64,000 nt of DNA from the IMG/VR virus record IMGVR_UViG_3300025536_000012, positions 67,496 to 131,495 of that record; one strand, written 5' to 3'. The notes under the pieces were generated by a model. It was not told the DNA's origin. It searched no databases and saw nothing but the letters and a program-made list of their open reading frames with translations. Both the position numbers and the translations under genes were made by a program. Of the stretch, positions 5,119 to 56,969 are shown one piece after another. Each line of letters starts with the position of its first letter. The stretch's first letter is position 1. Source of the stretch: a virus.

Positions 5119-5551
5119 CTTTGGTAGTCTGTCACTCCCCTAATCCTAGACAGCGAGGCGAAGGAGCCATCTAGGATCAAGTGACAGAAGGTGTCTTCCT
5201 ACGAGCAGGGGCTAGCTGAATCCAACTGCGAGCGTGTGAGCGTTGGTCAGGCTTGCCTAAGGAGCGAAGGCACCCCTCGGTCAAGGAAGGAGCTGCAAAC
5301 GAGAGGAGCGAGTCCTCTCAATTACCTGCTCAAGTAACTTATATCCGCCACGTGTGCTCTTTTGCACGGGCTCTTGCTGATCGCCAGTATCGACCACTGG
5401 ACCTTCAACGCGTATTTGTTGAGAACTACGGAATGAAGTACATAGTCAGCAAGGCTGTCATCAGAACAATTGCTTGGATGATTCGCTTGTAGATCTTCAC
5501 TATTTCTCTTGAGGGAAAGAAACGCTCGAGGGGACGAGCGTGTTGAAAGGT

Positions 5552-6172
5552 TTATGCACTGGCCATAAAACGCTGGTGGGCGCGTTCCACGATTCGATCT
5601 ATGGCTTGATGATACGGTTCTCTCATCGATGCAACGATCTCGATGTCTAGGTCCTCTTCGCTGTTGGAAAACGTGATCGTGAACTGCTGACGCAACCGGA
5701 GATATTCACCTTCAAGGTGAAAACTGCACCCAAGACTCTCCAGAGCGTCCATCTTTCGGAAAGTATCGATGCTTACAGGCATGGGCAGCCACTGAACCTC
5801 TCGGTTCGGAGGAGCGAAGAATTTGACGACCAGAAAGTTGGGAGCCTTCGCCCGAACTTCAGTCAGGTCACAAACTCCTGTTCCTCTGATCCCTTCGGCT
5901 TTCAATAGCTCTTGAAGTTCCACTTCTCGCATGATGTGGCATTCGGTTCCCCAGACGATGTTGCCATCGTCAAGTTGAATCTTGGGAACCATCTGCTTGT
6001 GCAAGCGAGCAAGAACGGACACAGGACCCACCGCTTCCTTTCCGACGATGTCATCACACTGGTAAACACCAAACCCAAAGATGATAATGTGATCATCTTC
6101 TCCAGTGTGAGAGACAGCTACAATGCGTTCCCCAGGGGTTAATGGTTTGGATAGAACATCCTGTCCACTCAT
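5552..6172 (-). CDS. hypothetical protein
   Basis: 206-aa ORF. Confidence 0.5.
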   Translation of the reverse strand: MSGQDVLSKPLTPGERIVAVSHTGEDDHIIIFGFGVYQCDDIVGKEAVGPVSVLARLHKQMVPKIQLDDGNIVWGTECHIMREVELQELLKAEGIRGTGVCDLTEVRAKAPNFLVVKFFAPPNREVQWLPMPVSIDTFRKMDALESLGCSFHLEGEYLRLRQQFTITFSNSEEDLDIEIVASMREPYHQAIDRIVERAHQRFMASA

Positions 6173-6583: not shown

Positions 6584-7294
6584 TCACAAGAGCGGATCCC
6601 CGTCGTAGTCAGCGGCAGGCACAACTAGGACGACAGGCGGAGGAGTAGCAGCCTGAGCAGGAAGCTCGTTGTACTCCCAGTGTCCGTTCACCATCTCTCG
6701 AGTCCAGCCGTCCATCTTCCCGGAATGGAAATACTCGTGGACGATTGCCTTCACATCCTCGTGTTCGATGCGGGCAACCGTCTTGCCATGGACGTGAACG
6801 GTCCCGCTTTCAGTGTGGTCAACATTGATCTTTCCGTCGTTGACCATTTCGCGGAGGTGTTTGGTGACGTCGTGAGCGGAGAATTTCTTCGCACTCAAAC
6901 CCATCAACTCTGAGATCGTTTGGAGGGTTGCGGTGACGAGGGTCGGTTTGTTTTGGGGTAGACACATAACAGTTACCTTTCCCGAGCTCTTGGCAGCTAC
7001 GGTCTGCGTTGTGGGCTTGGTTGTACGAGATGTGGTTGATTGGTTAGCGGTCGGTATAGCAGTCCAAAGTTTAGGACCATTCGGTTTGGTGGGGTCTTGC
7101 GGCTTACGCGTAACGAGACCCCTTTCGAAGAGCTTCCGCATCGCCCGGCTAATAGTTTCACCACAAGATCCAGGGATATCATGGACGAGCTCCTTGAAGG
7201 TCATCGGCCGAGCAATGGCTTTGAGGATTTCGTGTGCTTTCGAGATGTACGTCATAGTGACTCCGGTTTGTCCCATCCGATCGGAAGCTCGCAA
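6584..7294 (-). CDS. winged-helix DNA-binding protein
   Basis: N-terminal wHTH-like segment (FKELVHDIPGSCGETISRAMRKLFERGLVTRK) followed by a Thr/Pro-rich linker. Confidence 0.4.
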   Translation of the reverse strand: MRASDRMGQTGVTMTYISKAHEILKAIARPMTFKELVHDIPGSCGETISRAMRKLFERGLVTRKPQDPTKPNGPKLWTAIPTANQSTTSRTTKPTTQTVAAKSSGKVTVMCLPQNKPTLVTATLQTISELMGLSAKKFSAHDVTKHLREMVNDGKINVDHTESGTVHVHGKTVARIEHEDVKAIVHEYFHSGKMDGWTREMVNGHWEYNELPAQAATPPPVVLVVPAADYDGDPLL

Positions 7295-7650
7295 TTATCT
7301 GGGGCATCCTTGAAGAGGGGAGCGATGTCTTTGTCGTCGTAGCCAGCAAGGCCACAGCCGATCCGTGTCACGAAGAATTGCAGATCGGGGTGACATCGAG
7401 CGTAGGCGATGAAGTTCAGGACAAAATGCTGGATGGAATCCAGTGGTAATGTCTCGAGATTCTCGTCCTTGGTGGGGATGGCGTAGCAAGAGTTCATTCG
7501 CCCAGCCGCCTTACCTCGAAGGGCTCCAAGATTATCCAAGGCAAACCGGGCTGCCCCCGCCCCATGAATGCCGGCCAGATTAGATCCAAAGACGAAGATC
7601 TTTATCGACGTGGGATCGAAGTCACGATCTCTTGGATGCTTATTCATCAT
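7252..7650 (-). CDS. Rossmann-like nucleotide-binding protein (possible SLOG/LOG-like)
   Basis: 'IFVFGSNLAGIHGAGAARFA' glycine-rich loop; family not resolved. Confidence 0.35.
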   Translation of the reverse strand: MMNKHPRDRDFDPTSIKIFVFGSNLAGIHGAGAARFALDNLGALRGKAAGRMNSCYAIPTKDENLETLPLDSIQHFVLNFIAYARCHPDLQFFVTRIGCGLAGYDDKDIAPLFKDAPDNCELPIGWDKPESL

Positions 7651-8009
7651 TCAACCTTTTCTTGAGGGCTTCGTTCAAAACCTTCTTTGCTCCTGCTGGA
7701 AGGGAAGTCACAACAAGCAGTCGATCCAGGAACCCAAGGGCGACTTCTTTGCCTTCCTTCTGTATCTCCCAGACGAAGCCTAGCTTCTTTCCGTTCTCCC
7801 ATTTCATGTCCCGATCGACGGTGAGAGCTCGAAGGGGGGGGGACATCCTCCTTGTCGTTGTCCCAATCGTACCTCGGCTTCCTCGTCTCGAGCCTGGTGA
7901 CGACGCCGTATTTCAGAATTGGACAACGTCCCCAAGAAGCAGCATAGGCGACGAAGCTACCTACCTTGATCTCGGTATCGTTCAAGTCGTAGTGCTTTAC
8001 AGCACTCAT
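7640..8009 (-). pseudogene. hypothetical gene split into two ORFs (7647..8009 and 7640..7846) at a G9 homopolymer
   Basis: both ORFs read through GGGGGGGGG at 7834..7842; a 1-nt length change would fuse them into one protein of about 135 aa. Confidence 0.35.
7834..7842. repeat. poly-G (G9) homopolymer tract
   Basis: nine consecutive G on the plus strand inside a coding region. Confidence 0.9.
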
Positions 8010-9451
8010 TAGTACCTACTCCCTGAGGTCTTGAACTCGATGAGGTACTGTAGGATGTGCTGATGGATACTGTAGACAATGAACTCGTTATGAACGAGCC
8101 AGCGTCCCTTCTTGCCCTGCACGGAGTCGTAACCAGACGGTGGTTTGGTCAGATGGGTCTGAGCATCCTCGTACTCTTTGATCGTTCCGAGGGCAACGTC
8201 GGTGACGAACATGAAGAATGTATCAGCCTTGCCACTTCCTCCACCATATCGACCAAACGAATACTGTTCTGACTTAGAGCTTTGATCTGCGAAGTAGAGA
8301 CCGTTGCCGAACATAGATCCCGTGATGTAGACACCTGGAGGTCTCATCAGAAGACCGTGCTTGCAGATACCGAGGATGTTCTGTGGACCAGATCCGTGGA
8401 ATAGCGGCTTGACGTTGCCAATCTCTTTCATCTTGGGCAGGTGCTTCTCCTTCTGGCCCTTGATTCTGACGCGCCAGATGTTCTGGATTGAAGCTTTCCA
8501 ATCGTGGTGACTCGAGCGTGTCGACGAGTGAAAGTCCTCGATGCGCTTGTAGGCGGGATCGTCCTTCGCCAGATAGACGTACTCGCACCCGATCTCGACA
8601 TACTTCTTCTCGACATCGGTGGACGCAAATCCCTTGACCATGCCTTGCACGTCTGAAAGTAGACCAAGAAGATCTTCCTTCTCATCGAGACGCTTCTCAT
8701 CATTGAGCACCATCGTGGCCAGCCATTCGTCGAGAGCTTTCTTGCCTTCCGATGGCTTTGGCCTGTGGGCAATGGTCTGGGGAATCGCCGAGTAGAACTC
8801 GTTTGACTTCTGAATGAGGTCAGCGTGAATCGTGCTCTTTAGTTTGGGCTTGTCGACAATCATCTGCTGGATCTCTTGCAGGATATTACGCCCGTGGTCG
8901 ATCTGGCTCAGGGTCAATGTACCTAGCGGGTTCTCGACAGAGGTGTTGAGAGTTCCAGAGAGCTGCTGACGAACGGCTTGTCCGGCCTCTGTATAAAGAC
9001 GGTCAACCAGCTTAGCCACCGTCTGATGGATATCGAGCTTGGTCTTCTTCTCGCCCTTATCCTCGGTCTCTCCTTTGACCTTGTCCTTCTTGACGTCGTC
9101 GGACAGGATCTGGGAGTTGGTGACTGCCGAACCAATCTTCGTCGCAGCCATCTTGATCTCGACGTAGCCTTTGCTTGCCTTGGTCTTCTCGGCCTTTAGG
9201 GATTCGAAGGCAGAAAGCAAAGACGCCTCGTCTTGATCAGGGACGCGTTCCTCCTGCATTCCTTCTTGTCCGACTCGGCCGTAACGTGAGTACAGACGGA
9301 ACTTCTTCTTGTCTTTCGAGACATGTGCCTCGATCTGATAGAACTTGTTGTTGCCTTCCTTGAGGTCGGTCTTGTTGAGGGTAGCGACACGAAGGACGTC
9401 ATAGTCCGAAGGGAACGTCATCGTGCCGAACTTCTGTGATCCGAGCTTCAT
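8009..9451 (-). CDS. poly(ADP-ribose) polymerase-like ADP-ribosyltransferase with WGR domain
   Basis: WGR signature 'FYQIEAH...FRLYSRYGRVG'. PARP catalytic motifs 'LFHGSGPQNILGICKHGL', 'GNGLYFADQSSKSEQY' and 'HNEFIVY' form the H-Y-E triad. Likely start is the Met of 'MKLGSQKF', giving an ATGA overlap with the upstream SLOG gene. Confidence 0.8.
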   Translation of the reverse strand: MKLGSQKFGTMTFPSDYDVLRVATLNKTDLKEGNNKFYQIEAHVSKDKKKFRLYSRYGRVGQEGMQEERVPDQDEASLLSAFESLKAEKTKASKGYVEIKMAATKIGSAVTNSQILSDDVKKDKVKGETEDKGEKKTKLDIHQTVAKLVDRLYTEAGQAVRQQLSGTLNTSVENPLGTLTLSQIDHGRNILQEIQQMIVDKPKLKSTIHADLIQKSNEFYSAIPQTIAHRPKPSEGKKALDEWLATMVLNDEKRLDEKEDLLGLLSDVQGMVKGFASTDVEKKYVEIGCEYVYLAKDDPAYKRIEDFHSSTRSSHHDWKASIQNIWRVRIKGQKEKHLPKMKEIGNVKPLFHGSGPQNILGICKHGLLMRPPGVYITGSMFGNGLYFADQSSKSEQYSFGRYGGGSGKADTFFMFVTDVALGTIKEYEDAQTHLTKPPSGYDSVQGKKGRWLVHNEFIVYSIHQHILQYLIEFKTSGSRY

Positions 9452-9996
9452 GAGAAATGCCTTGGGTTGATTCTGTGTATTGGTCGTCTGACTTGTTCCG
9501 CGTACTCGACGCAGTTGTACGTTCCGCCCCTGGATCCATCCCAGACGGCAATGAGGATATCGCAGTTGTCGACCATCCAGCGGTTCCTGCGATCCATCTT
9601 GTGGGCAGAATAACCGCCCCCTGTGACAACGTACTGGCAATAGGCGTGCGCCAAGAGCTCGCGATAGAACTCTTGGGACTCTCTAGGCCATGTAGATTCT
9701 TGGCCTAAAAAGGGGACCGCAGCGATGAATGGGATCTGCATCTCTACGCACGTGAATGCGAAGTCCTGGTCGACGCCTAAGGCCATTCCAGAGATGCAGT
9801 ACTGAGGCTCGAGGAATTCTAGGATGAATCTTATCTTCGAGCGTATCCATTGTCGCTGTGGGGCGTCGAAGTCGTAGCCGCCGATCTTGTCTGGGCGGTG
9901 CCCTGTAACAGCTACAACCCAGGGCTCAATCGTCTTCTCTGACCTCGAGGATTCTTGATATGAGTGCGGTCTTTCCTCCAGGGATCTTGGAAGCAC
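9448..9996 (-). CDS. YpsA-like SLOG-family (DUF1273-like) Rossmann-fold protein
   Basis: 'VVAVTGHRPDKIGG', 'ISGMALGVDQ' and 'NCDILIAVWDG' match the YpsA/DprA-like SLOG pattern. Confidence 0.65.
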   Translation of the reverse strand: MLPRSLEERPHSYQESSRSEKTIEPWVVAVTGHRPDKIGGYDFDAPQRQWIRSKIRFILEFLEPQYCISGMALGVDQDFAFTCVEMQIPFIAAVPFLGQESTWPRESQEFYRELLAHAYCQYVVTGGGYSAHKMDRRNRWMVDNCDILIAVWDGSRGGTYNCVEYAEQVRRPIHRINPRHFS

Positions 9997-11113
9997 CGAT
10001 GATCTCCAGGCCGTAGGTTGCGTACTTACGCAGATCGTCGAGGGATTGCTTGGTCAGTCCGGCCATGTCCAACTTGTTGAGCTTTGCGTAGCCCTTGTTG
10101 GGCTTCTTCTTGACGACGGATTTCTTCTTTTCCTCCGCCTTCTTCGCAGTCGTCTTGACGGCAGCAGTGCTCAACGGACCGTCTTCGTCCTCATCGTCTC
10201 CATCGTCATCTTCATCGATATCCGGCTTTGTATCTTCGGAATCATCATCGTCATCCGGATCGTCCTTGTCTCCATCCCACTCGTCCTCCTTGATCTCCTC
10301 ATCGTCATCAGGTTCTGCTGCGTGTACTTCTGGAGTGGCGGTTGTGGTGTGCTTCGAATACTCGAGATCTCGAATACTGATAGAGGTGGATGGTAGCTCG
10401 GTACCGTAGTTACCGATCACTTTGTACTCACAAACCCGCATCTTTTGAGCACTGCTATCTTGGGGCACGCTTACGACGTGTTCTGGGTCGACTTCGCAAA
10501 CTACGATTCTTCCACCGGAGTGGAATGATCTGACGTATCCCATAGCCCCTACATGAAACCCTTCATCACAGGCTACCATTTGATCATCCGAGATTTTGTT
10601 GCGAAGCATCTTGTTGGTGACACCTGGGCGATTGTCGAATTTCCCTGAATGCACGTCCTTATAGTCCTGCCGCACAGACTTGTACGTAAGGATCTTGCCT
10701 TCTGGAGTGAGCGGGATGTTCGAGTGCTTGAGAAATCCGTAGAGCTGTTGTACCGAACGGTATGAAGGGTTCTTGCTCAAGCGCTCCCAGAAGTTGAAGA
10801 GGATGGTCGGATTCTCTCCGTTGGTAGCCATCGCGACGATTCGAGCCGTGATGTCTTCTGGAACCTCTTCTCCCATATACTTCACGTTATTGCCTTTGAT
10901 CTCGAACTTGTCGTTAGACCAGGTCTCGATGCTCTTGGTCACGGTGAGATGGCCAGGAACGTCGGCCCATCGCTCCTCATGCAGTGCATTTTTCAGGTTG
11001 ATGAAGTGAGGGGATCCCTTCTTCACCACCCATGGTCTACCTTCGTGATAGACCGTAACTGATTCGTCGGAGATCATGAACTTGAATGGGCTATTCGTCG
11101 AAGATGTTGTCAT
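9926..11113 (-). CDS. hypothetical protein with acidic tract and C-terminal Rho-N/SAP-like motif
   Basis: long D/E run; C-terminus 'LTKQSLDDLRKYATYGLEIIGASKIPGGKTALISRILEV' resembles the Rho N-terminal / SAP helix-extension-helix. Confidence 0.45.
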   Translation of the reverse strand: MTTSSTNSPFKFMISDESVTVYHEGRPWVVKKGSPHFINLKNALHEERWADVPGHLTVTKSIETWSNDKFEIKGNNVKYMGEEVPEDITARIVAMATNGENPTILFNFWERLSKNPSYRSVQQLYGFLKHSNIPLTPEGKILTYKSVRQDYKDVHSGKFDNRPGVTNKMLRNKISDDQMVACDEGFHVGAMGYVRSFHSGGRIVVCEVDPEHVVSVPQDSSAQKMRVCEYKVIGNYGTELPSTSISIRDLEYSKHTTTATPEVHAAEPDDDEEIKEDEWDGDKDDPDDDDDSEDTKPDIDEDDDGDDEDEDGPLSTAAVKTTAKKAEEKKKSVVKKKPNKGYAKLNKLDMAGLTKQSLDDLRKYATYGLEIIGASKIPGGKTALISRILEVREDD

Positions 11114-13271
11114 CGTCTTCCTCTTCCTCCTCGTCCTTTATGACTGGAGTTAAATTCTGCGGGCGAACCTTGTCGATCAGTTTGATGTATTCGGCCCAGT
11201 GGATTGAGTTCTTACCCCACAGCTCTGACATCCGGCTCAAGGCTACGAGAGGGTACTTCGCGTAGATATCGTCTCGAGCCTTTAGGGCATCGAACTTGTT
11301 CGTTGCCTTGACCTTCTCGTAGAGCCGACTGATGGCGTTTCTTTGCTTTTCTGGAAGCTTGGAATAGATCCTCTTTGCTTCTCTCTGTCTCTTCAGGAGT
11401 CGAGTGATTGGGTGCTTGACCCCAAACAGATCCAAGGCAACTGTGTAGCTAGATGCCTCACCGTGGTAGTCATTGGTGACAACCACAGCAGCTTCGTACA
11501 CCGCCAATTGCTTCCTGATCTTTTCAATGGCCGCGATCTGGTGAAAGACCTTTTCTCGCCACTCTGGATAATGGGTACCAGTTCTCTGCTCCGGCAGTAC
11601 CGGCTTCTTCTTTGTGCTCTTGTACCCATAGATCTCAGGCATCGTTTCGCCGAGCCCCACGATAATGTCTTTGTCGTTCTTGTACGAGCGATAGATATCG
11701 AACTCGCCTTCGAAGTCCGTCCGAAACCCCTTGAGGATGACAAAGACATCATCCTTCGTAGGAACCCGTTTCTCAATCGTCCAAATGTCAGACCACGGGT
11801 GTGTGAACGCGGCATTGACCTGTAACTTGAATGTGGAGACCCGATGCTTGTCGTTCATCTGCTTGAGCTTCGGAGTTTTGACTGGAGGCGGTGTCCAGTT
11901 CAACGACGATAGCTTCAAAACCGGAACGCCATAGAACCCCAACTTGATCGATAGCTTCTCGAGCTCTTCCTCGACGTCCTCCCACTCCTCTCCATCATTC
12001 ATTCGTACCAGGTAGTCATGGTACTTGAGATCGTGGAATCCAGTTGTGTTGCGAAGATCGTCTCGTAGAAAGATACGAGTGTCGGTGCCGACATAAAGAC
12101 TGGTCGTCTCTGCCTGGGACTGCCAGCTAGTCAGAACGAACGTCTTCGTTTTAGCTTTGTACTCGAGGCTGGTTTCGAGAAGGTCCTTGAACTCCTTCGG
12201 GATCGGAAGTCGAAGGTGGTTGAGGATCTGAGCTCGGACACGTTTCTCCCAGATCGTGACCTTGCTATCGTCCTCTAATGCAGCAATGGTCGTACGAACG
12301 TACTCATCGACCAGGTCGTTGAACTTCTTGATTAGCGCAGCTTTGGTAGAAGTGCTGTACTTGAGTCCTTCACGAGAGGCGCTGACCTGAACGTCTCCGA
12401 TATTGAAGTACAGAACCCCGGAAAGATGCTTGATATGGTTTCCGATACCGCCATCTGGATTGTGTGCTCCTTCTAGTTGATCTAAATCAACCTTGTATGG
12501 AACACACCCCATAACAGCTACCCACTCAGCTGCGCTACCTCTTGAGCTGTTTAGGATTCCATTGGAAAGAATCTGGCGCTCAGCAGGGAGATCCGGAAGC
12601 TTGATATTGATCTCTGGCCTGGGCTCGAAGTACTGAAACAACGACTCAGCCTTCTGGTTGAAGTCCCAGATATCTTCAGGCTTGACCGGGATCTGGATCG
12701 TGATTCCCGTCTCGTCTTCATCGCACTCTTCTTCGTTCAGAAGATTGATGCTGCCCTTGTTCGATTCGTCCAGCACCGCGACGTAGGTTCGACACATCCC
12801 ACCATGCCTGGATGTGATCGTGAAGCTATCGGAATACGCGAAGGCACTCTTGGATCCGATTCCGAATTGGCCGACCACATCATCGCTGTTCCGTTTGGTG
12901 CTTTTACCGTACTGGGTATAGACCTGGAACATGTCAGTCTCGGAAAGCCCTAAACCGAAGTCCTGAATGTAGAGCGTGGGATCTAGCTTGGTTGGAAGAG
13001 TGACCTTGATAGGGAGATCCTTCTTGCCGGCGTCTCTGTTGGCATCCCAAGCATTCGAGGAATATTCCCGAAGAGGGGCGAGCACCTTGTCGGAATACAA
13101 GGTGTCACGAAGGATGGTCATGATGTGGGCAGAGTCATCTCCCGAAATGCCAAACGAGCTACTTGCTGTGACTCCGCTCGATGTCAGCTTTCGTGCAGTT
13201 GAGTTAGAGATCAAAGATCCCTCCTTACTTCTGGGTGATAGTCTGCAACCCCCGTCTGACAGTCCAATCAT
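11091..13271 (-). CDS. GHKL-family ATPase (Hsp90/HtpG- or Topo VIB-like Bergerat fold)
   Basis: N-box-like 'REYSSNAWDANRD', G1 'IQDFGLGLSE', G2 'VVGQFGIGSKSAFAYSD'. Confidence 0.65.
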   Translation of the reverse strand: MIGLSDGGCRLSPRSKEGSLISNSTARKLTSSGVTASSSFGISGDDSAHIMTILRDTLYSDKVLAPLREYSSNAWDANRDAGKKDLPIKVTLPTKLDPTLYIQDFGLGLSETDMFQVYTQYGKSTKRNSDDVVGQFGIGSKSAFAYSDSFTITSRHGGMCRTYVAVLDESNKGSINLLNEEECDEDETGITIQIPVKPEDIWDFNQKAESLFQYFEPRPEINIKLPDLPAERQILSNGILNSSRGSAAEWVAVMGCVPYKVDLDQLEGAHNPDGGIGNHIKHLSGVLYFNIGDVQVSASREGLKYSTSTKAALIKKFNDLVDEYVRTTIAALEDDSKVTIWEKRVRAQILNHLRLPIPKEFKDLLETSLEYKAKTKTFVLTSWQSQAETTSLYVGTDTRIFLRDDLRNTTGFHDLKYHDYLVRMNDGEEWEDVEEELEKLSIKLGFYGVPVLKLSSLNWTPPPVKTPKLKQMNDKHRVSTFKLQVNAAFTHPWSDIWTIEKRVPTKDDVFVILKGFRTDFEGEFDIYRSYKNDKDIIVGLGETMPEIYGYKSTKKKPVLPEQRTGTHYPEWREKVFHQIAAIEKIRKQLAVYEAAVVVTNDYHGEASSYTVALDLFGVKHPITRLLKRQREAKRIYSKLPEKQRNAISRLYEKVKATNKFDALKARDDIYAKYPLVALSRMSELWGKNSIHWAEYIKLIDKVRPQNLTPVIKDEEEEEDDDNIFDE

Positions 13272-14700
13272 CTGGATCCGTGTCGACGTGAAGCGTGATG
13301 TCTCCGAAGTGGTTCTTGAAGTTCTTGATCATTTCATGAACCTTCTTCCGAAGTGTCGGGTGGATGTACTTTCCGGATCGGAGCTCCATCACATAGATGG
13401 CTGCCGGCAAGGCATACGTCACCTGGGTTGGGACTCGAAATCCCAGAGCGGTGTAGTACTGCCTAGGGAGATAGTCCTTGGAAAGGGCTTTGATTCTACC
13501 TGTCTGGATCTCGATGAGTTGTCGAGCCTCTTCCTGAAGACCGTCATCTAGCTGCTCGAGATACCACGACTCGAAGTCGTAGCTCGTATCGAGGAGTGGC
13601 ATACGACAGACGCCATTTCGATGCCGCTGAATGTCCCTGAAAGATCCGAAGTCGAGAAGGAATGTGAAGGTGATTTGCCCTTGATCGGCCATGAGGTGTG
13701 GAAGTACACAACCCTTCGGCCTTTTGTAGTACAGCTTGAAGTAGTTCTTGTAGTTATCGAGCCCAACCACCGACATGATCATGTCTTCTCTTGGGTAAGG
13801 AATGATCGGTTTGGGATAGGCAAAGAGCTCCGCATGTTCCATCTCCCAAGCAGCTCTAGCCTCGTTAGCTTCCTGATCCTTATGCCCAATACCGCTAACA
13901 GAGGCCAGACTCTGCTCGAACCCACTAGCTGGGTACTTCGTGGCTAACATTTTGCTAAGTCCGATGGCGATATTCGCGATCTCCGAAGAAGGGTGATTCC
14001 TCATCATGTTGAGGTGATCGCCGGCCTGACGCAAATTGGTATGCCATGAGAGATGGGCGGTGATACCGGCAGGCAAGAAGCCGCGAAGAACATCGAAGGC
14101 TCTGGCCTTGACTGCCTTCTCGTAGACATCCGGCTTCTCCCCTTCCTTGATGGGGTAGCGTTCGCGGACGGTGGCGGCAACTCGATCTTGATTGTTGGTA
14201 TAGAACGCCATCCAATCGTCCATGATACTCTTCGAGAGAACTGTATTGATTGGATCGACGATGCGCTGCTGCGACATGTCGATGTACCGGGTGCTTGTCT
14301 CCTGTCCGCAGTACAACGGCCAGTCTTGAATTGCCTTGGCGGCCAGCAAGCTGACGTTCTCGATGAACGCCGTGGTGGATCCACAGTCCGCAATGCTCTT
14401 GTGTCCATAGCCGACGTAGAACGACGACATGAACTTGCCGCTACCGGATTTCTTGATCTTCTCGATGTGGGTCTCAGCACTCTCTGCACTACGAGAGTAG
14501 AGGGCCTGGAGCATGGCAACGTCCTCGGGAGAGAGGTCGTCGACGATCATCAACTTCTGCGCTTTGTCAGTCATTTGGTTTCGTTCTCTCTTCTTTAGGA
14601 ACCTGGGGGTAGTATTCTTTGCCCATAATAGACAGAACTTCCCGCCACTTCTTTTCCTCAAGGCAGGGTCTCGTACAACACGCCTCGTGGAAGAATCCAT
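13225..14700 (-). CDS. ThyX-like (Thy1 fold, flavin-dependent thymidylate synthase family) protein, divergent and possibly tandem-domain
   Basis: 'WHTNLRQAGDHLNMMRNHPSSEIANIA' matches the ThyX NxRxLxxF..LR...AQxEI block. 'FRDIQRHRNGV' gives the RHR motif, but the conserved Ser after RHR is absent. Motif order and 491-aa length suggest duplication. Confidence 0.55.
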   Translation of the reverse strand: MDSSTRRVVRDPALRKRSGGKFCLLWAKNTTPRFLKKRERNQMTDKAQKLMIVDDLSPEDVAMLQALYSRSAESAETHIEKIKKSGSGKFMSSFYVGYGHKSIADCGSTTAFIENVSLLAAKAIQDWPLYCGQETSTRYIDMSQQRIVDPINTVLSKSIMDDWMAFYTNNQDRVAATVRERYPIKEGEKPDVYEKAVKARAFDVLRGFLPAGITAHLSWHTNLRQAGDHLNMMRNHPSSEIANIAIGLSKMLATKYPASGFEQSLASVSGIGHKDQEANEARAAWEMEHAELFAYPKPIIPYPREDMIMSVVGLDNYKNYFKLYYKRPKGCVLPHLMADQGQITFTFLLDFGSFRDIQRHRNGVCRMPLLDTSYDFESWYLEQLDDGLQEEARQLIEIQTGRIKALSKDYLPRQYYTALGFRVPTQVTYALPAAIYVMELRSGKYIHPTLRKKVHEMIKNFKNHFGDITLHVDTDPDDWTVRRGLQTITQK

Positions 14701-42781: not shown

Positions 42782-42955
42782 CTACTTCCCCAGTAACTGG
42801 GCGATGACTGCCATGATCACGAAGACGATGTAGACAGTCAGTAGTACAACGGAGAACCCCGACCGACTAATCAGGGCGATGCCTGTGATCACTGCTCCGA
42901 GGTAGAAGAGTTCTCGCCAGCCGAACAGTGTCTTCTCAGACGTCGAGTTTCTCAT
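42782..42955 (-). CDS. small two-TM membrane protein (holin-like topology), 57 aa
   Basis: own translation gives MRNSTSEKTLFGWRELFYLGAVITGIALISRSGFSVVLLTVYIVFVIMAVIAQLLGK; not in the supplied ORF track. Confidence 0.35.
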   Translation of the reverse strand: MRNSTSEKTLFGWRELFYLGAVITGIALISRSGFSVVLLTVYIVFVIMAVIAQLLGK

Positions 42956-44411
42956 TCACGCACTCCTCTGGTGATTTGTCGGTTCGAACGCGAACGAATC
43001 CGGGGAAGGTGAGGGCGTTTGTATCGTCTCCATCAGAGATGTACGAACGATCTACGAACTTCACCTCAGCCACGAAGGGGAAGCTTCCTGCGTTGAGCTT
43101 GGCTTGGAACTCGAAGTCCATCCCACTCGAACAATCGCAGATATAGACGAGCTTTCCCATGGAGTCTTTCTGGAAGAGACCGACGCTTCCAACTCCTCCG
43201 TGCTTGACCTTCTCTCCACTTGGGAGCTCGACAATCTTTCCGGACTCATGTTTTCCCTTTCCTAGGGTCCCGTATTTCTTTGAGGGATCCCACTTAACGA
43301 TGAAGTCATCCTCGAACCATGGTTTGAGTTTGGCGCAAGAGGCCCCAGGACGGTCTGGTTTGCCCTTCATATTCCAGCCCTTGTCCCCGTAGATCCCGTC
43401 TGGATCCACCACGACCCATCCTTCGAGGTCGTGTTGTTTGGCCCAAGAAGTCGCATCGTCAGGCTTCGGGAAACGCGTCCATTGAACTGGCTGGATCCAG
43501 GACGGAGCTTGGTGACAGACCATGTGTACGTACTGATACCGGTCCATCACCTTCATCTCAGTAACTAGGTCTTTACCGTCGAGGAACGGTACGTCCCAGC
43601 AGTAGAGCCCAAGCCACCCGCTCTGATGCTGTTTCTCTAAGGCGACAGGAGTCAGTGACTTCTCCACGCTCTGCACATGAGCGAAGTGTGCCTTGGTGTC
43701 GCCTCCCGGATGCACGAGCTCGCAAGCCAGCATCGTATTGGGAGGAAGACCCATCGATTTGATGGTTTCCACCAGATGTGGATAGCGGGCTGATAGTGGG
43801 ATGACGTTGGCGTAGTTCAGGGTTCCATCATCTTGCTCTATCGGGCCTTCGTCTTTGTGCCAGGGTCTATTACGTCGACTGTAAAACGATATTCCCCGAT
43901 TCCCATCAACCACGACCCATGTCGCCATCCCGTTCCGTTTGAGCGCGTAGATTGCAGTTCCCCCCTCCGCTTTCTTCAACAACTTTGTCGCCTCGAGCAA
44001 ATTGTTGTCGGGCTTGTACAAAGAGAAGTTGCCGGGAAGCATCTTTAGGAGGGTAGAAATTGAAGGTTTTCCGGATCTCCCGTCCACGTTTACTTCTCCC
44101 ACAAACTCGTCGTACCCCTCAAAATCCCACTTCTTTCGACATAGCCTTCTCGCCTCAGCGAGCGCATCCACACGTGGTGAAATCTCGTTCGCTTTCCCCG
44201 CGTTTTTCACCTTCCCTGCCTTATTCGTATCCTGCATTGCCCCCCCTAAAAGGCCGTGGCAGGTGAAATAGCGATCCCCTTCAACCCAGATCTCCCAGAC
44301 GTTGGGACGGTCATTCCTTCCATGAAGCTGACGAAACGATCTCTTACTTCCATCCCAAATTACCTGCCTCTGCTCGAAATGTAGGGTTGACCAATCATGC
44401 TGATTTGACAC
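42936..44411 (-). CDS. ATP-dependent ligase-like nucleotidyltransferase (DNA or RNA ligase family), possible WGR-like N-terminus
   Basis: motif I candidate 'ALKRNGM' (KxNG), motif IV-like 'EGWVVVDPDG', motif V-like 'ASCAKLKP'; N-terminal 'WEIWVEGDRYFTCHGLLGG' is WGR-like. Confidence 0.55.
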   Translation of the reverse strand: MSNQHDWSTLHFEQRQVIWDGSKRSFRQLHGRNDRPNVWEIWVEGDRYFTCHGLLGGAMQDTNKAGKVKNAGKANEISPRVDALAEARRLCRKKWDFEGYDEFVGEVNVDGRSGKPSISTLLKMLPGNFSLYKPDNNLLEATKLLKKAEGGTAIYALKRNGMATWVVVDGNRGISFYSRRNRPWHKDEGPIEQDDGTLNYANVIPLSARYPHLVETIKSMGLPPNTMLACELVHPGGDTKAHFAHVQSVEKSLTPVALEKQHQSGWLGLYCWDVPFLDGKDLVTEMKVMDRYQYVHMVCHQAPSWIQPVQWTRFPKPDDATSWAKQHDLEGWVVVDPDGIYGDKGWNMKGKPDRPGASCAKLKPWFEDDFIVKWDPSKKYGTLGKGKHESGKIVELPSGEKVKHGGVGSVGLFQKDSMGKLVYICDCSSGMDFEFQAKLNAGSFPFVAEVKFVDRSYISDGDDTNALTFPGFVRVRTDKSPEECVNEKLDV

Positions 44412-45376: not shown

Positions 45377-48300
45377 ATGCTTTCGTCTGGACAAGTTTCG
45401 CAGATGTTCGCCCAGCAGAACCAACAGTTCGCTGGAAATGCGATGTACTCGCAACAGATCTCGCAGCAGATGCCTGGGATGTATCAGGGCGGGTACGGAA
45501 TGCCGATCGCTGGAGGGCAAGGCTTCTCCTATGGCAGCGGAGGCGACTTCTCCGGTCGAGTGAGTGGTGGAGCTGTTTCGGCAATGGGTGGCGCAGCTCA
45601 GTTCGGTCTTGGTGCTGGCGCTGTCATGGGTGGATTGGGGATCGGAGGACCTGCTCTACGAATGCTCGATCCCTTCTCCGGTGCCGGTGCGATGTACCGA
45701 GCTGGTGGTGCGATGGGCATGGGGATGGGTGGGCGTCTTGCGATGGGTGCCGCAGGAATGCTACCGGCGACGGCAATCATGGCGGGAGCAAGCCACGTTA
45801 TCGGTTCCGTAGTCTCCGGAGCTCAACAGCAGGCAGGTATTGAAAACGTTCTAGGACGTAACTTCAACTTCAACAACCCCTCGAGCGGTGGTCGAGGATT
45901 CAGTCGTCAACAGAGCATGGTCATCGGCGACATGGTTCGTCAGATGGAAAGCATGCCCGAGATGATGACCTCGATGGGTGAACTCACCCGCATCATGGAC
46001 AAGCTTGGCCAGATGGGGGCCATGAGCGGAGTTACCAACGTTCGAGACTTCGGCACAAAGTTCAAAAGCACTCTGGGTGTTTTGAAGGAGATGTCCAAGG
46101 TGATCGGATCTACGATGGAGGAAGCTCTTCCTCTATTCGGAGAGATTCGTCGTTCTGGCATGTATTCGAACTCCGACATCCTGAAGAACGCCATGCAGCG
46201 TCAAGTTGTCGGCGGTATGACGGGCATGAATCAGGGACAGGTAGGGCAGGTCGCTGCGTATGGAGCCCAGCTTGGTTTCGCTACGGGAGGTAGTCGAGCC
46301 ACGGGGGCACAACACGCTCTTCGAATGGCAGGTCAATTAGGCATGGCCAATCAGATGGGGGCTTTGTCCAACGACAAGATCATGGAGCTCACAGGCCTCG
46401 AAGGTGCCGAGGGCATTCAGGCGCTATCGGGTCAGTTGACGCAGGCTGGTTATCGTATGTCCGGCGGCGCCCTTGGAACCGCGATGTCGATTGCAATGGC
46501 CGAGCAGGACGGCGGTCGGTTCACGGGAAAGATGGACGCCACCCTCATGGACCGCTTCCGTAGAGGAGACATCTCTAAGGGAGAGATGCTTTCTATGGTT
46601 CGTCAGAAGACGTCGAGCCGTGGATCGAAGATGTCCTACGTCGCCAACAAAGGACGTCTCCGTTCTGAGATGGCTGGACAGATGGGCGTCGAGGGTCAGA
46701 TGAACATGCTCGGCATGGTTCTCGGAGAGCGCGGCTACGACAACCCAGACGCTTTGAACATCGTCAGCCAGGGCTTCGGTCTTGATGAACGAGAGGCTGG
46801 ACTCCTCGTAGAGCTCGGCAAGAAGATGCCAGATATCGGCCTCGAGATGAAGTCTCGCGGTCGGGCCGAATCGAAGCGAATCGCTCAACAGGCATTCATG
46901 AAGGAGAACTACTCCTGGGATGCCTTGAAGACGAAGGTTGGTAAGAAGATCGAAGGTGTCATCACCGAGCCCTTCAAGCAATTCGGTGCCGATCTTCGCA
47001 ATACCATCAACAACGTCGTCGACGGGTTCGTTGATGAGATCACCGGTCGCTACAAGGTAGAAGTTACCAGCGGTATGTCCAAGCTCATGCAGGGAGCCGG
47101 ATCAAACCTCGGAGATGCGAGAAGTCGTCTTGCTACCATGCTTAGTGGATCGGTGGGCAAATCCGTTAGCGGAACCTTGGGCGGCGGCGTGGATATGTCT
47201 CCAGGGGCTATGGGAGCCGCAATGAACTGGATGACCGGTACGAAGTCTGCCGGTGAGCGTTCTGTCGACGCTATGGAACTGACCACCGTCGGAAGAAACG
47301 CCCTCATGAGAGTCGATCTTCAGAAGGATGTTAATCTGGCTCAGCGTCACGGCTACAACGTTCTCGATACTGATCGTCGAGCGTTCAACACGTCCATTCG
47401 CACCATGGCGACAGACGAAGGAATGCAGGCCGCCGGAGCTCGTCTGTCTGGTCTTGTTTCTGGAAAGATCGGAAGAGGCGATGCTGAACTTGCAGCTATC
47501 GCCAAATCAGCAGACTTTGGGTCTGCACGTGGAGATATAGTTTCTCAAGAGATCTGGGGACGTCGGTTGGGGGGCGGCGGATTAGGGCGTCTCGAGGAAC
47601 GCCACGGCATTGCCGATATCACTGCCGCAGCCGCAGGAGAAGATTCCGCCCTGGCTGGCAGGGCATTATCCAGAATGGGAGGAGACGCCGATATATTGAA
47701 CATGTCTCCGGATCGTCAGAAAGCGATTAGTGATTCCATTAGAAACTTCGAGAGAGGTACGGCTCAGAAGATCTTCGGAGCGGAAGGTGCAGACGAATTC
47801 ATGTCATCTATGAAGGGTCTGCAAGGAACTAAGGCGGGTGATTTCTTGAAGAATACCTATCTGAGAAGTTTCGGAGCATCGGAAAAGAGCGCGACTCAGC
47901 ACGCAATTGGGAGCGTAGCTGAAGTCCTTGGGCAGGGTTTTGGTGAAGGTATGGGGCGTGAGATGATGGCGAAAGGCATCGGCCTGGCTGGAAGCTTTAT
48001 GGGGTTCGGAGGTGATCAAATGGATGACGCCAAGGCCCTTGTTAGAGGTCGAGGTGACGATTCTCGCGACGACTATTTCAAGGGCTTAGCGATGAAGGAG
48101 ATGTATGGAGGCGGTCTCACTGCGGGAGAGAGGGTAGAAGTTGATAAATTCGGAACCGCCTACGAGTCAGTCAAGGATGAGGTCAGATTGCGTGAAATAT
48201 CCCAAAAAGGATCTGATCCAAAACACAAGGCTTGGACGAAGGACGAAGAAGCCTTCCTCACCAAGATGGGCTACGACAAAGACAGCTTCACTCCAGACGT

Positions 48301-49344: not shown

Positions 49345-49556
49345 TGGCGGAGCGTAAGGAAGAAACGACCCGCATCGTCCTCACCAATGGCGATGCCGTA
49401 ACTGTCACCGTTCGTGATGGGTTGATCATCGACGACCTGATTATTCAGGGAGTGAAGGCGGAAGCCTATCGCATCATGACGGGGCGGGACGTGTATCCGG
49501 AGGTTGGTAGAGACCTCAAGGACTACCTCATCAAGACGGGAGTGATCCTCGACTAA
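49344..49556 (+). CDS. hypothetical protein
   Basis: 70-aa ORF, tightly packed. Confidence 0.45.
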   Translation: MAERKEETTRIVLTNGDAVTVTVRDGLIIDDLIIQGVKAEAYRIMTGRDVYPEVGRDLKDYLIKTGVILD

Positions 49557-56087: not shown

Positions 56088-56969
56088 GTGCGGGTGCCAA
56101 ACCTAGCGGTCTTGGATTCGCTCCTCCAAAAGAGAGCGGACCTATTCGATTTCTCGGCTCCTGAAGAAGAGGAAGGGAAGCAGCTCCAGTCATGGATGAC
56201 TCCTCCATCTTTCATTTCGAGTGCCAGTCGTTTTGGAATGGCATCCAAGCCGAAGGATCTGAAGGGTACCCAGAAGAAAGAAATCGACCTCTGGCATAAT
56301 TGGAACAACAATGGTCGCAAGTCGGATGATTTGAAACCACTATACCAGTCGCTGAAGCCGGTCGTAAACAAAGCGGTTTCCAACTGGGCAGGCCGTGTTC
56401 CGGTCCCGACCTCGGCAATTCAAGCCGAGATGCACAAGCAGTTCGTCAACGCTATCAAGACATTTCAGCCAGGAAAGTCCGCGTTGAATACGTGGGTGAC
56501 CAATAACCTCCGCAAGGGTGGTCGCTTCATCAAGAATTACCAGAATCTTGGACGTATACCGGAGAATCAAATCGACAAGATCGAGCCTTACAAGAAGGCG
56601 AAGATGGAGCTCTACGATAAGCTGGGTCATGAGCCCGATACACACGCCATCGCCGAACACATGGGCGTACCGGTTCGCAAGATTCATCAGCTCGAGAAGG
56701 AGAACCGTCAGGACCTTGCGGCATCGATCTTCAGCGAAGGTGACCCAGCCCAGGTTCTTGCGCCAAAGGAGCTCGAGGCTCTCTCCCTGATTCAATACGA
56801 TCTCACTCCCGAACAACGCATCGTCTACGAACACACGTTCGGCATGGGAGGCAAGAAGATGCTCAAGCCCGGAGAGATCGCGGCTCAGACTGGAATTCAC
56901 GCCAGTAAAGTGTCTCGCATTCGAAAGATCCTCAAGGATAAGGTCTTGGATGCAATGGAGCTTGTTTAA
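56088..56969 (+). CDS. sigma-70 family RNA polymerase sigma factor (sigma-28/ECF-sized)
   Basis: region 2-like 'FQPGKSALNTWVTNNLRKGGRFIKNY' and region 4 HTH 'LTPEQRIVYEHTFGMGGKKMLKPGEIAAQTGIHASKVSRIRKILKDK'; GTG start after AAGGTGG. Confidence 0.6.
   Translation: MRVPNLAVLDSLLQKRADLFDFSAPEEEEGKQLQSWMTPPSFISSASRFGMASKPKDLKGTQKKEIDLWHNWNNNGRKSDDLKPLYQSLKPVVNKAVSNWAGRVPVPTSAIQAEMHKQFVNAIKTFQPGKSALNTWVTNNLRKGGRFIKNYQNLGRIPENQIDKIEPYKKAKMELYDKLGHEPDTHAIAEHMGVPVRKIHQLEKENRQDLAASIFSEGDPAQVLAPKELEALSLIQYDLTPEQRIVYEHTFGMGGKKMLKPGEIAAQTGIHASKVSRIRKILKDKVLDAMELV

What the first reader, a model, noticed from the sequence alone, without database searches (positions are those of the whole stretch)
7252..9996. 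Phage-encoded PARP with an intact H-Y-E triad next to a YpsA-like SLOG protein
The 8009..9451 protein has a WGR domain and a PARP catalytic domain with the H-Y-E triad (HGS, GLYFAD..Y, HNEFIVY), so it is predicted to be an active ADP-ribosyltransferase. Its start overlaps (ATGA) the stop of a YpsA/DUF1273-type SLOG Rossmann protein. Comparative genomics has proposed this family to bind NAD- or ADP-ribose-derived nucleotides. A further Gly-loop Rossmann-like ORF (7252..7650) lies two genes away. This suggests a compact NAD+/ADP-ribose signalling or counter-defence module. A possible function is ADP-ribosylating host proteins or DNA, or opposing NAD-depleting defences. A second WGR-like protein (ligase-like, 42936..44411) lies elsewhere in the window.
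Basis: partly seen in the sequence, partly recalled or inferred. Interest (0 to 1): 0.8.

Follow-up and report, generated by a model that had tools for sequence, protein, structure and literature searches.

The report
Phage PARP with SLOG, macrodomain neighbours
A large uncultured phage encodes a PARP2-like, probably DNA-break-activated ADP-ribosyltransferase, flanked by a YpsA-type nucleotide-binding protein and a DarG/TARG1-type ADP-ribose-removing macrodomain; all three kinds are already catalogued in phages, and the two neighbours are variable accessory genes, not fixed partners.

Summary

Two side claims needed correction. The "Gly-loop Rossmann-like" ORF at 7252-7650 is a small macrodomain of the A1S_2505 phage family. 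It is closest in fold to DarG and TARG1, and it keeps the Asn and Lys that are catalytic in DarG2 and PhiKZ AdfM. The ligase at 42936-44411 has no detectable WGR domain.

These three are the only NAD+/ADP-ribose genes found in the 64 kb, and they sit within five genes downstream of rIIA-rIIB. In about 40 related metagenomic loci the conserved order is rIIA-rIIB-PARP-wHTH gene. The SLOG gene is nearby in 6 of 18 loci, at variable positions. The macrodomain is nearby in 15 of 22. Both families are far more common in phages that have no PARP.

Best reading: a conserved, break-sensing phage PARP in a variable accessory stretch, flanked by independently useful ADP-ribose genes. Phage PARPs are already catalogued but none has been characterised. 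This is a new member of a known kind.

The parts
8009..9451 (-). PARP gene, 480 aa plus stop. WGR is about aa 23-100 (nt 9152-9385; the motif reads Y57-G58-R59). The helical regulatory domain is about aa 142-270 (nt 8642-9028). The ART domain is about aa 301-480 (nt 8012-8551). Key codons: H352 at 8396-8398, Y386 at 8294-8296, Y397 at 8261-8263, E456 at 8084-8086.
   Evidence: Pfam. PDB alignment to PARP2 and PARP1. Invariant columns. Codon positions checked.
9448..9996 (-). YpsA/YoqJ-family SLOG protein, 182 aa from GTG 9996. A GGAG lies 7 nt upstream, and the gene overlaps rIIB by 71 nt. The conserved core starts at aa 27. GxD motif is G74/D76 and the GGT motif is G157-G158-T159. The stop overlaps the PARP ATG (ATGA).
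7252..7650 (-). A1S_2505-family mini-macrodomain, 132 aa. Invariant N24 (7579-7581) and K61 (7468-7470) align with AdfM N23/K78 and with TARG1 'TK'. The second Gly loop is G98-C99-G100-L-A102-G103.
7640..8009 (-). Small conserved gene of unknown function between the PARP and the macrodomain. In this window it is split into two frames at a 9-base C run (G9 on the + strand, 7834-7842). One base fewer would restore a 122-aa ORF collinear with the 121-aa homologue in L012.
6584..7294 (-). 236-aa protein with a weak winged-HTH-like N-terminus and an unassigned C-terminal domain. It is the most consistently retained downstream neighbour of the PARP (18 of 22 loci). Weak matches also occur next to PARPs of 44-49% identity.
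9926..11113 (-). rIIB homologue, the conserved upstream anchor of the locus.
   Evidence: PHROG 609, E 1.1e-66. Synteny.
11091..13271 (-). rIIA homologue (HATPase_c_3 domain), a conserved upstream anchor.
5522..5541 (-). Terminator-like hairpin (7 pairs, T-rich tail) just after the last gene (5552-6172) of the co-directional, overlapping gene block. The total number of such sites in the region is not above chance.

Best explanation
This is a variable accessory stretch downstream of rIIA-rIIB in an uncultured phage of about 212 kb. It carries three NAD+/ADP-ribose genes that most likely act separately.

1. The PARP is the conserved element. By analogy with PARP2 and PARP3, its WGR domain binds DNA breaks. 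Binding releases the autoinhibitory helical domain. The H-Y-E ART domain then transfers ADP-ribose from NAD+ onto itself, onto nearby proteins or onto DNA termini. In infection this would couple nicked or cut DNA (degraded host DNA, restricted or replicating phage DNA) to ADP-ribosylation. Mono versus poly activity is undecided: the loop before the catalytic Glu is about 31 residues shorter than in PARP2, and the PARP1 Y986 position is His.

2. The mini-macrodomain is an ADP-ribosyl hydrolase of the DarG/TARG1 type, with N24 and K61 as catalytic residues. Its most likely job is to strip ADP-ribose from DNA modified by host DarT2-type defences, as PhiKZ AdfM does. It could also trim PARP products.

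3. The YpsA-type SLOG protein binds, or cleaves, a nucleotide or ADP-ribose-derived ligand, or possibly ssDNA as its DprA and ShosA relatives do.

Shown here: the domain identities, the catalytic residues, the gene order and the comparative distribution. Inferred: every activity, every target and the independence of the three genes.
For: PARP:
- Full architecture and triad are present.
- More than 120 clusters at 60-100% identity sit on contigs up to 243 kb, all with the three domains. That indicates a gene kept under selection.
- rIIA-rIIB-PARP-g6584 is the conserved order.
- PARP2/3 activation by 5'-phosphorylated breaks through WGR and the helical domain, and ADP-ribosylation of DNA ends reversed by TARG1, are established (PMC8883491).

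Macrodomain:
- The N24/K61 alignment to AdfM N23/K78. AdfM removes DarT2 ADP-ribose from DNA (PMC13309987).
- The only weak sequence hits in the PDB are TARG1 and the thymidine-ADPr hydrolase SCO6735.

SLOG:
- Viral SLOGs are mainly of the YpsA clade and occur in 31% of jumbo phages (PMC9503650).

Independence of the three genes:
- SLOG is near the PARP in 6 of 18 loci and the macrodomain in 15 of 22, at variable positions and copy numbers, with no correlation between them.
- The macrodomain family occurs in 421 phage records and the SLOG family in 301, almost all without a PARP. PARP occurs in 16.
- Other PARP lineages lack both genes nearby.
- Klebsiella phage KP13-16 lacks both genome-wide.
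- A phage with rIIA/rIIB as similar as PARP-bearing relatives (L059) has no PARP within 7 kb downstream of rIIB. The site is therefore variable.
Against: - The three are the only NAD/ADPr genes detected in 64 kb, and they fall within a five-gene span. Under random placement of 3 genes among about 80 this has a probability of roughly 0.5% (hand calculation, post hoc).
- All the genes overlap or abut and are co-directional. SLOG and PARP share an ATGA junction here and in L013.
- The SLOG gene keeps turning up within 5 kb of the PARP even when its position changes. Many short contigs appear to carry both genes, judged from matching contig lengths.
- TARG1-type macrodomains do reverse PARP-made modifications.
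- No experiment exists on any phage PARP.
Confidence: 0.55

Rival explanations
1. This is an integrated writer-eraser(-reader) system. The PARP writes ADP-ribose on proteins or DNA ends at breaks. The DarG/TARG1-like macrodomain erases it. The SLOG protein senses or processes an ADP-ribose-derived product. The three work as one phage ADP-ribosylation circuit.
For: - Tight co-directional clustering, and the only NAD/ADPr genes in the window.
- The ATGA coupling of SLOG and PARP.
- The macrodomain lies downstream of the PARP in 15 of 22 clade loci, in two tandem copies in 3 of them.
- TARG1 reverses PARP1-3 DNA-end and Glu/Asp ADP-ribosylation (PMC8883491).
- YpsA-clade SLOGs are predicted NAD/ADPr binders (PMC6459960).
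Against: - All the co-occurrence is within one phage clade, where synteny is inherited.
- 7 of 22 loci lack the macrodomain and 12 of 18 lack the SLOG gene while keeping the PARP.
- Independent PARP lineages (the 44-49% clade, and Xanthomonas, Stenotrophomonas and Klebsiella phages) show neither gene nearby.
- Both partner families are overwhelmingly found in phages without a PARP.
- No PARG-type enzyme for chain removal was seen.
Confidence: 0.25
2. The PARP acts as an NAD+-consuming or toxic ADP-ribosylating effector, for host shut-off or superinfection exclusion. The macrodomain acts as its antidote, giving a toxin-antitoxin-like pair analogous to DarT-DarG or sirtuin-macro pairs.
For: - ART-macro and sirtuin-macro TA-like pairs are described in phages and bacteria (PMC9503650).
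- The macrodomain is closest in fold to the DarG antitoxin.
- PARP hyperactivation depletes NAD+ in eukaryotes (general knowledge).
Against: - The PARP keeps its own autoinhibitory helical domain and WGR sensor, so it needs no antitoxin.
- The macrodomain is missing from a third of PARP loci.
- The two genes are not adjacent; a conserved small gene lies between them.
- The PARP has no PADLOC hit.
- Other PARP phages carry NAD+ salvage genes: NAMPT in L007; NAMPT, NadR, PnuC and Prs in KP13-16. That fits sustaining NAD+ and not draining it.
Confidence: 0.08
3. The three genes are neighbours by chance. The PARP is a horizontally acquired passenger with no role in infection.
For: Accessory genes of large phages cluster in variable regions. 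56% of jumbo phages carry a macrodomain and 31% carry a SLOG domain (PMC9503650).
Against: - The PARP is conserved at 60-100% identity in more than 120 sequence clusters. Every catalytic and many WGR and helical-domain residues are invariant.
- It holds a fixed position next to rIIB.
Confidence: 0.07

Closest known systems
Human PARP2 and PARP3 (WGR / helical domain / ART; DNA-break-activated)
   Same: Same three-domain order with no zinc fingers or BRCT. Best PDB match is PARP2 at E 1.2e-30 over residues 22-432, plus the catalytic Glu segment. The H-Y-E triad, K393/S394/Y397 (the PARP1 K903/S904/Y907 positions) and M380 are present.
   Different: About 30% identity. The WGR motif reads YGR. 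The segment before the catalytic Glu is about 31 residues shorter (query 432-443 against chain 510-552). The PARP1 Y986 position is His454. There is no N-terminal extension. Encoded by a phage. Activity is untested.
Bacterial PARPs (Herpetosiphon aurantiacus, Clostridioides difficile)
   Same: Prokaryotic-world WGR-(regulatory)-ART proteins with a catalytic Glu (PMC8120803).
   Different: The review says most bacterial PARPs lack a well-defined PARP_reg match. This protein has one above Pfam's threshold. No close relative was found in 185,579 reference genomes with the two patterns scanned.
PARPs annotated in cultured phages (Xanthomonas XacN1 BBA65562.1, Xoo-sp13, Stenotrophomonas RAS14/CM1, Klebsiella KP13-16/FBKp34, Cellulophaga phi4:1)
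   Same: Phage-encoded PARP/PART-family proteins. They are already noted in surveys of jumbo phages and of viral NAD+-ADPr systems (PMC7824862, PMC9503650). They fall in PHROG 23333.
   Different: Only 25-31% identical. Their neighbourhoods differ and show no YpsA-type SLOG or A1S_2505 macrodomain within 5 kb. This PARP belongs to a separate, large, uncultured clade anchored to rIIA-rIIB.
B. subtilis YpsA and SPbeta prophage YoqJ (YpsA clade of SLOG)
   Different: There is no gpsB linkage. The residues needed for YpsA's cell-division effect were not examined. The ligand is unknown for the whole clade.
DarG2 macrodomain, PhiKZ AdfM (anti-DarT factor macro), human TARG1, S. coelicolor SCO6735
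   Different: It is shorter (about 110-130 aa) and forms a separate sequence family (A1S_2505, PHROG 2072) with only marginal sequence similarity to these proteins (hhalign probability 21%; PDB profile E 0.15-0.9). The TARG1 Asp125 position is Ala102. It has no DarT-binding domain. No activity has been measured for any member, as far as the searched literature shows.
ShosA and DprA (ssDNA-binding SLOG proteins)
   Different: It is much closer to YpsA. It lacks the extra ShosA and DprA domains (182 aa against 300 or more). DNA binding is untested.

Membership tests
PARP (PARP1-3-like clade of H-Y-E ADP-ribosyltransferases) | ART catalytic domain with the His-Tyr-Glu triad in register | tested here: met
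   Pfam PF00644 at 112.5 bits (cutoff 26.7). H352, Y386 and E456 align with the PARP2 triad. All three are invariant in 26 homologues.
PARP (PARP1-3-like clade of H-Y-E ADP-ribosyltransferases) | Helical regulatory (autoinhibitory) domain N-terminal to the ART domain | tested here: met
   Pfam PF02877 at 48.9 bits (cutoff 26.8), residues 142-270. It aligns with the PARP2 helical domain.
PARP (PARP1-3-like clade of H-Y-E ADP-ribosyltransferases) | WGR domain | tested here: met
   Pfam PF05406 at 52.8 bits (cutoff 22), residues 23-100. The motif is Y57-G58-R59.
PARP (PARP1-3-like clade of H-Y-E ADP-ribosyltransferases) | DNA-break-dependent ADP-ribosylation; formation of poly(ADP-ribose) | not testable with these tools
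   This needs an enzyme assay. The short loop before the catalytic Glu and His454 at the PARP1 Y986 position leave mono versus poly activity open.
YpsA family (PF06908/DUF1273) of the SLOG superfamily | Profile match above the curated threshold and a YpsA-like fold | tested here: met
YpsA family (PF06908/DUF1273) of the SLOG superfamily | Conserved GxD/E substrate-binding signature (YpsA G53/E55) | tested here: met
   'lGVDq' aligns with YpsA 'lGVEl'. G74 and D76 are invariant in 32 homologues. The motif is defined in PMC6459960.
YpsA family (PF06908/DUF1273) of the SLOG superfamily | Binding of an NAD+- or ADP-ribose-derived ligand | not testable with these tools
   For this clade this is only a comparative-genomics prediction in the literature.
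Macrodomain, DarG/TARG1-like hydrolase class | Macrodomain fold | tested here: met
Macrodomain, DarG/TARG1-like hydrolase class | Catalytic Lys (TARG1 K84, DarG K80, AdfM K78) and Asn (DarG N22, AdfM N23) | tested here: met
   N24 and K61 are invariant. They align with AdfM N23 and K78. K61 aligns with the first Lys of TARG1 'ITKK'. The residue roles are taken from PMC13309987 and PMC8883491.
Macrodomain, DarG/TARG1-like hydrolase class | Significant sequence-level membership in the same family as DarG, AdfM or TARG1 | tested here: inconclusive
   hhalign to AdfM gives probability 21%, E 0.001 for one comparison. The PDB profile search gives E 0.15-0.9. No Pfam Macro hit appears at E <= 0.1. 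This is a separate family that shares the fold and the motifs.
Macrodomain, DarG/TARG1-like hydrolase class | Hydrolysis of ADP-ribose from thymidine in ssDNA or from Asp/Glu/phosphate | not testable with these tools
   This needs an enzyme assay.
Conserved multi-gene system (PARP + SLOG + macrodomain) | Co-occurrence of the parts across related and independent lineages | tested here: not met
   SLOG is present in 6 of 18 loci and the macrodomain in 15 of 22 within the clade. Both are absent (0) in the 44-49% clade and in cultured PARP phages.
WGR domain in the ligase at 42936-44411 | WGR profile match or similarity to the PARP WGR domain | tested here: not met
   Only DNA_ligase_A_M is found. 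There is no Pfam hit at E <= 5 on residues 1-140. hhalign probability is 0.4%.

The most novel reading that the evidence does not exclude
The phage PARP and the DarG/TARG1-like macrodomain form a phage-borne, reversible DNA-end ADP-ribosylation cycle. The WGR domain finds 5'-phosphorylated nicks or ends made on phage DNA by restriction, replication or packaging. The PARP caps them, or itself, with ADP-ribose to shield them from host exonucleases or to hand them to the phage ligase. The macrodomain uncaps them. The YpsA-type SLOG protein binds the released ADP-ribose derivative or ssDNA. This would be the first physiological role for PARP-type DNA ADP-ribosylation, and it would be in a virus of bacteria.
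Probability: 0.1. Interest if true: 0.85.

Novelty: new member of a known kind. Interest (0 to 1): 0.45.

Why it matters
No phage PARP, and hardly any bacterial PARP, has a known biological role. This locus shows that a full PARP2-like sensor-enzyme is a conserved gene of a large, widespread clade of uncultured phages of about 200 kb from soil and sediment, fixed next to the rII genes. That makes the clade a good source of candidates for biochemistry. The work also assigns the very common phage protein family A1S_2505 (PHROG 2072, 'unknown function', more than 8000 sequence clusters, N4-like phages included) to the DarG/TARG1-type macrodomains with the catalytic Asn and Lys intact. Anti-DarT-type de-ADP-ribosylation may therefore be far more widespread in phages than the single characterised case, AdfM. 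The claim of a dedicated three-gene signalling module does not survive comparison.

Tried and rejected
1. A nucleotide search of 6.3 kb against 50,697 phage records found no match. There is no close cultured relative.
2. A scan of reference bacterial and archaeal genomes with two PARP peptide patterns found no relative. It gives no clue to the host or a prophage.
3. WGR in the ligase was rejected. The N-terminal domain of the ligase is instead shared with a ligase that lies 2 kb upstream of the PARP in L008 (38% identity over 74 aa).
4. I asked whether PARP neighbours in other lineages are ADP-ribose genes. Pfam on 10 neighbours found NAMPT and a radical-SAM protein (L007), an RNA ligase (L008), and a CoaD-like cytidylyltransferase and a weak GNAT match (L009). 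It found no macro, PARG, ARH, NADAR or SLOG domain.
5. The idea that the A1S_2505 homologues annotated 'ADP-ribosyltransferase' in Rhodobacter phages show an ART link was rejected. The label sits on the macrodomain homologue itself.
6. ICP1 AdfB as a relative of the macrodomain was rejected. AdfB is a 77-aa non-enzymatic DarT binder.
7. I tried to identify the conserved wHTH-like neighbour at 6584-7294 by Pfam, PHROG, PADLOC and PDB. Only sub-threshold HTH hits appeared.
8. I tried to read what replaces the PARP downstream of rIIB in PARP-less relatives (L059-L061). The high-GC sequence gives too many spurious ORFs to interpret by eye.
9. The promoter and terminator scan found nothing above chance.

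Full report
**What is at the coordinates**

All genes from about 5.5 kb to 18 kb lie on the minus strand and are tightly packed. Their order is:
- rIIA, 11091-13271
- rIIB, 9926-11113
- a SLOG gene, 9448-9996
- the PARP gene, 8009-9451
- a small gene, 7640-8009
- the ORF at 7252-7650
- a 236-aa gene, 6584-7294
- two more ORFs without matches
- a terminator-like hairpin at 5522-5541

rIIA and rIIB are identified by PHROG matches of E 3.6e-97 and 1.1e-66. A protein 100% identical to the PARP is on record on a 212,233-nt metagenomic contig. Relatives sit on IMG/VR viral contigs of 105-235 kb. The phage origin is therefore sound.

**The PARP**

The 480-aa product starts at the ATG at 9451. This start is confirmed by an invariant Met1 and the 'MKLxSQKFGT' N-terminus in 26 homologues.

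It matches three Pfam families above their curated thresholds: WGR (residues 23-100), PARP_reg (142-270) and PARP catalytic (301-448). Against all PDB sequences the best matches are PARP2 (E 1.2e-30) and PARP1, aligned from the WGR domain to the C-terminus.

In that alignment:
- 'lfHGSgpqN' pairs with PARP2 'lwHGSrmsN'
- 'itGsMFGnGlYFAD' pairs with 'itGyMFGkGiYFAD'
- 'SSKSeqY' pairs with 'SSKSanY'
- 'vHNEfivY' pairs with 'nYNEyivY'

So H352, Y386 and E456 are the H-Y-E triad. Y397, K393, S394 and M380 occupy the other donor- and acceptor-site positions. All are invariant in the family alignment. Codon positions were verified.

Two differences from PARP1 and PARP2 are visible. The stretch between the last conserved strands and the catalytic Glu is about 31 residues shorter (query 432-443 against chain 510-552). 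The residue two before the Glu is His454, not Tyr. Since PARP3 and PARP4 have an H-Y-E triad yet make only mono-ADP-ribose (established knowledge), the triad does not settle poly versus mono activity.

**The SLOG protein**

The YpsA GxD/E signature (PMC6459960) is G74-V-D76 and is invariant. JGI names the homologues 'phage-like protein YoqJ'.

The only canonical start upstream of the conserved core is GTG 9996. It has a GGAG 7 nt upstream and overlaps rIIB by 71 nt. The first 26 residues are poorly modelled. A 100%-identical 112-aa record (P0249) shows that a gene caller chose an internal Met, which would delete the first strand. The stop overlaps the PARP ATG as ATGA.

**The third ORF is a macrodomain**

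The protein at 7252-7650 has no Pfam hit. It matches NCBIfam 'A1S_2505 family phage non-structural protein' (E 1.1e-42) and PHROG 2072 (unknown function). The family is very large: all 8000 scored candidates were significant, and many are about 60% identical.

A profile comparison with PhiKZ gp104 (AdfM) aligns the whole domain. It puts invariant N24 on AdfM N23 and invariant K61 on AdfM K78. These are the putative active-site residues, equivalent to DarG2 N22 and K80, in the paper showing that AdfM removes DarT2-made ADP-ribose from DNA (PMC13309987).

A profile search of PDB sequences finds only sub-significant hits, at E 0.15-0.9. Apart from two unrelated proteins (a glyoxalase/bleomycin-resistance protein and an RPGR chain), they are TARG1 and the S. 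coelicolor macrodomain SCO6735. 'yaiPTKd' aligns with TARG1 'yyliTKK', and 'RIGCGLAG' with 'RIGCGLD'. The Lys is therefore kept. The position of TARG1 Asp125 (numbering from memory) is Ala102.

I file this protein as sharing the fold and catalytic signature of the DarG/TARG1 class. It is not a sequence-level member of their families.

**The ligase**

The protein at 42936-44411 has an ATP-dependent DNA ligase domain. No WGR domain is detectable.

**Are the three genes a system?**

Pfam scans of 56 further ORFs plus 20 scanned individually found no other NAD+/ADP-ribose domain in the window. The three genes therefore cluster within five consecutive genes. For 3 of about 80 genes placed at random this has a probability of about 0.5% (my own hand calculation, post hoc, and it ignores the known clustering of accessory genes).

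I then collected 8 viral and 41 metagenomic loci with related PARPs, plus two contigs by exact protein look-up. I located homologues of each window gene by tblastn.

Among non-redundant loci whose PARP is at least 59% identical:
- rIIB lies upstream in 15 of 18.
- The 236-aa gene lies downstream in 18 of 22.
- The macrodomain lies downstream in 15 of 22, in two tandem copies in three of them.
- The SLOG gene lies upstream in 6 of 18 (plus L036). It is 18 to about 1300 nt before the PARP in five loci, and on the far side of rIIA in L033 and L036.
- Presence of the macrodomain does not track presence of the SLOG gene.

The ATGA junction is shared only with the 80%-identical relative L013. In the 90%-identical L012 an extra 84-aa ORF separates the two genes.

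In loci with PARPs of 44-49% identity, and in Xanthomonas Xoo-sp13, Stenotrophomonas RAS14 and Klebsiella KP13-16, neither family is within 5-6 kb. The whole KP13-16 genome has neither.

Neighbours there are instead nucleotide and repair genes. L007 has NAMPT 1.9 kb upstream. L008 has a DNA ligase upstream and an RNA ligase downstream. Others have GMP reductase or NrdD. KP13-16 also carries NAMPT, NadR, PnuC, Prs and a sirtuin elsewhere in its genome.

Conversely, the macrodomain family occurs in 421 of 50,697 phage records, many of them N4-like. The SLOG family occurs in 301, mostly Streptomyces, Bacillus and Erwinia phages. PARP occurs in 16.

A phage with rIIA and rIIB about as similar as those of PARP-bearing relatives (L059: 47% and 45%) has no PARP within 7 kb of rIIB.

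Limits of this analysis:
- Flanks were 5-7 kb.
- The tblastn cut-off was E 1e-3.
- All positive co-occurrence lies within one clade, where synteny is inherited.

**Mechanism**

For PARP2 and PARP3 the following is established. The WGR domain recognises 5'-phosphorylated breaks. This relieves autoinhibition by the helical domain. The enzymes modify themselves, other proteins and DNA terminal phosphates. The DNA modifications are reversed by TARG1, MacroD2, PARG and ARH3 (PMC8883491).

The phage protein has every sequence element of that switch. I therefore infer a DNA-break-activated ADP-ribosyltransferase. Its targets and chain length are unknown.

The macrodomain most plausibly acts like AdfM against DarT2-type DNA ADP-ribosylation. 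This explains its abundance in phages without a PARP. Trimming of PARP products remains possible.

The SLOG protein's ligand is unknown. The literature predicts NAD+/ADPr-derived ligands or signal degradation for viral YpsA-clade SLOGs (PMC9503650). Its DprA and ShosA relatives bind ssDNA.

A PARP consumes NAD+, so it cannot itself oppose NAD+-depleting defences.

**Comparison with what is known, and novelty**

Phage PARPs are already noted. [quoted passage not shown] Another lists PART/PARP among the most frequent viral ART families (PMC9503650). GenBank annotates several.

Viral YpsA-clade SLOGs and macrodomains are catalogued in the same surveys, in 31% and 56% of jumbo phages.

I found no experimental study of a phage PARP. 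I found no paper on the A1S_2505 protein family as such.

The PARP is thus a new, divergent member (25-31% identity to cultured-phage PARPs) of a known kind, from a large uncultured clade. The assignment of the macrodomain is a useful annotation gain. The three-gene arrangement is lineage-specific.

**Verdict**

Interest is moderate.

Noticed in passing
window 7640-8009 (- strand); C9/G9 run at 7834-7842: The small conserved gene between the PARP and the macrodomain is split into two reading frames exactly at a 9-base homopolymer. With 8 bases it would encode a 122-aa protein collinear with the 121-aa homologue in L012 (6443-6808). This is either an assembly or sequencing indel, or real slippage or phase variation.
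   Followed up: partly
window 6584-7294 (- strand); L004 7434-8108; L007 7429-8007; L035 1559-1789: The 236-aa protein (weak winged-HTH N-terminus, Thr/Ser-rich linker, unassigned C-terminal domain with an 'SAHDVT' motif) is the most constant downstream neighbour of the PARP. Weak tblastn matches lie next to the 44-49% identity PARPs of L009-L011, L035, L040 and L042, and by eye the ORF that follows the PARP in L007 carries the same motif. Its family and role are unknown.
   Followed up: partly
L021 6921-7298 and 7815-8171; L023 1885-2262 and 2782-3138; L034 6949-7359 and 7412-7777: Three related phages carry two tandem, diverged copies (46-63% identity to the window protein) of the A1S_2505 macrodomain downstream of the PARP.
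   Followed up: no
L007 2722-4149; Klebsiella phage KP13-16 (L082 2850-3626, 8017-10081, 11095-13791): Other PARP-encoding phages carry NAD+ supply genes. L007 has NAMPT 1.9 kb upstream of the PARP. KP13-16 carries NAMPT, NadR, PnuC, Prs and a CobB sirtuin. None of these was found in this 64-kb window.
   Followed up: partly
window 42936-44411 (- strand), residues 1-140; L008 2837-3958: The ATP-dependent DNA ligase has an N-terminal domain of about 140 aa with no Pfam match. It is shared (38% identity over 74 aa) with a ligase encoded 2 kb upstream of the PARP in L008. It is not a WGR domain.
   Followed up: partly
window 13225-14700 (- strand): The ThyX-like protein is unusually long (491 aa), and the Thy1 domain covers only residues 60-257. 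The same long form (513 aa) precedes rIIA in L012.
   Followed up: no
window 45377-49102, 50906-54418, 57717-59861, 49556-50905 (+ strand): Four large proteins (1241, 1170, 714 and 449 aa) have no Pfam or PHROG match at all. A sigma-70 region 3-like protein lies among them at 56088-56969.
   Followed up: no
window 9926-9996: The SLOG ORF overlaps the end of rIIB by 71 nt when started at the only available canonical start codon (GTG 9996). An ATT codon at 9928-9930 overlaps the rIIB stop (ATTGA) and sits just before the conserved core. A 100%-identical 112-aa record (P0249) shows that a public gene call used an internal Met.
   Followed up: partly
Rhodobacter phages RcKeef (L056 2498-2866) and RcZahn (L057 2471-2860): Homologues of the A1S_2505 macrodomain are annotated 'ADP-ribosyltransferase' in GenBank. 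This looks like a mislabel of a predicted ADP-ribose hydrolase or binder.
   Followed up: partly
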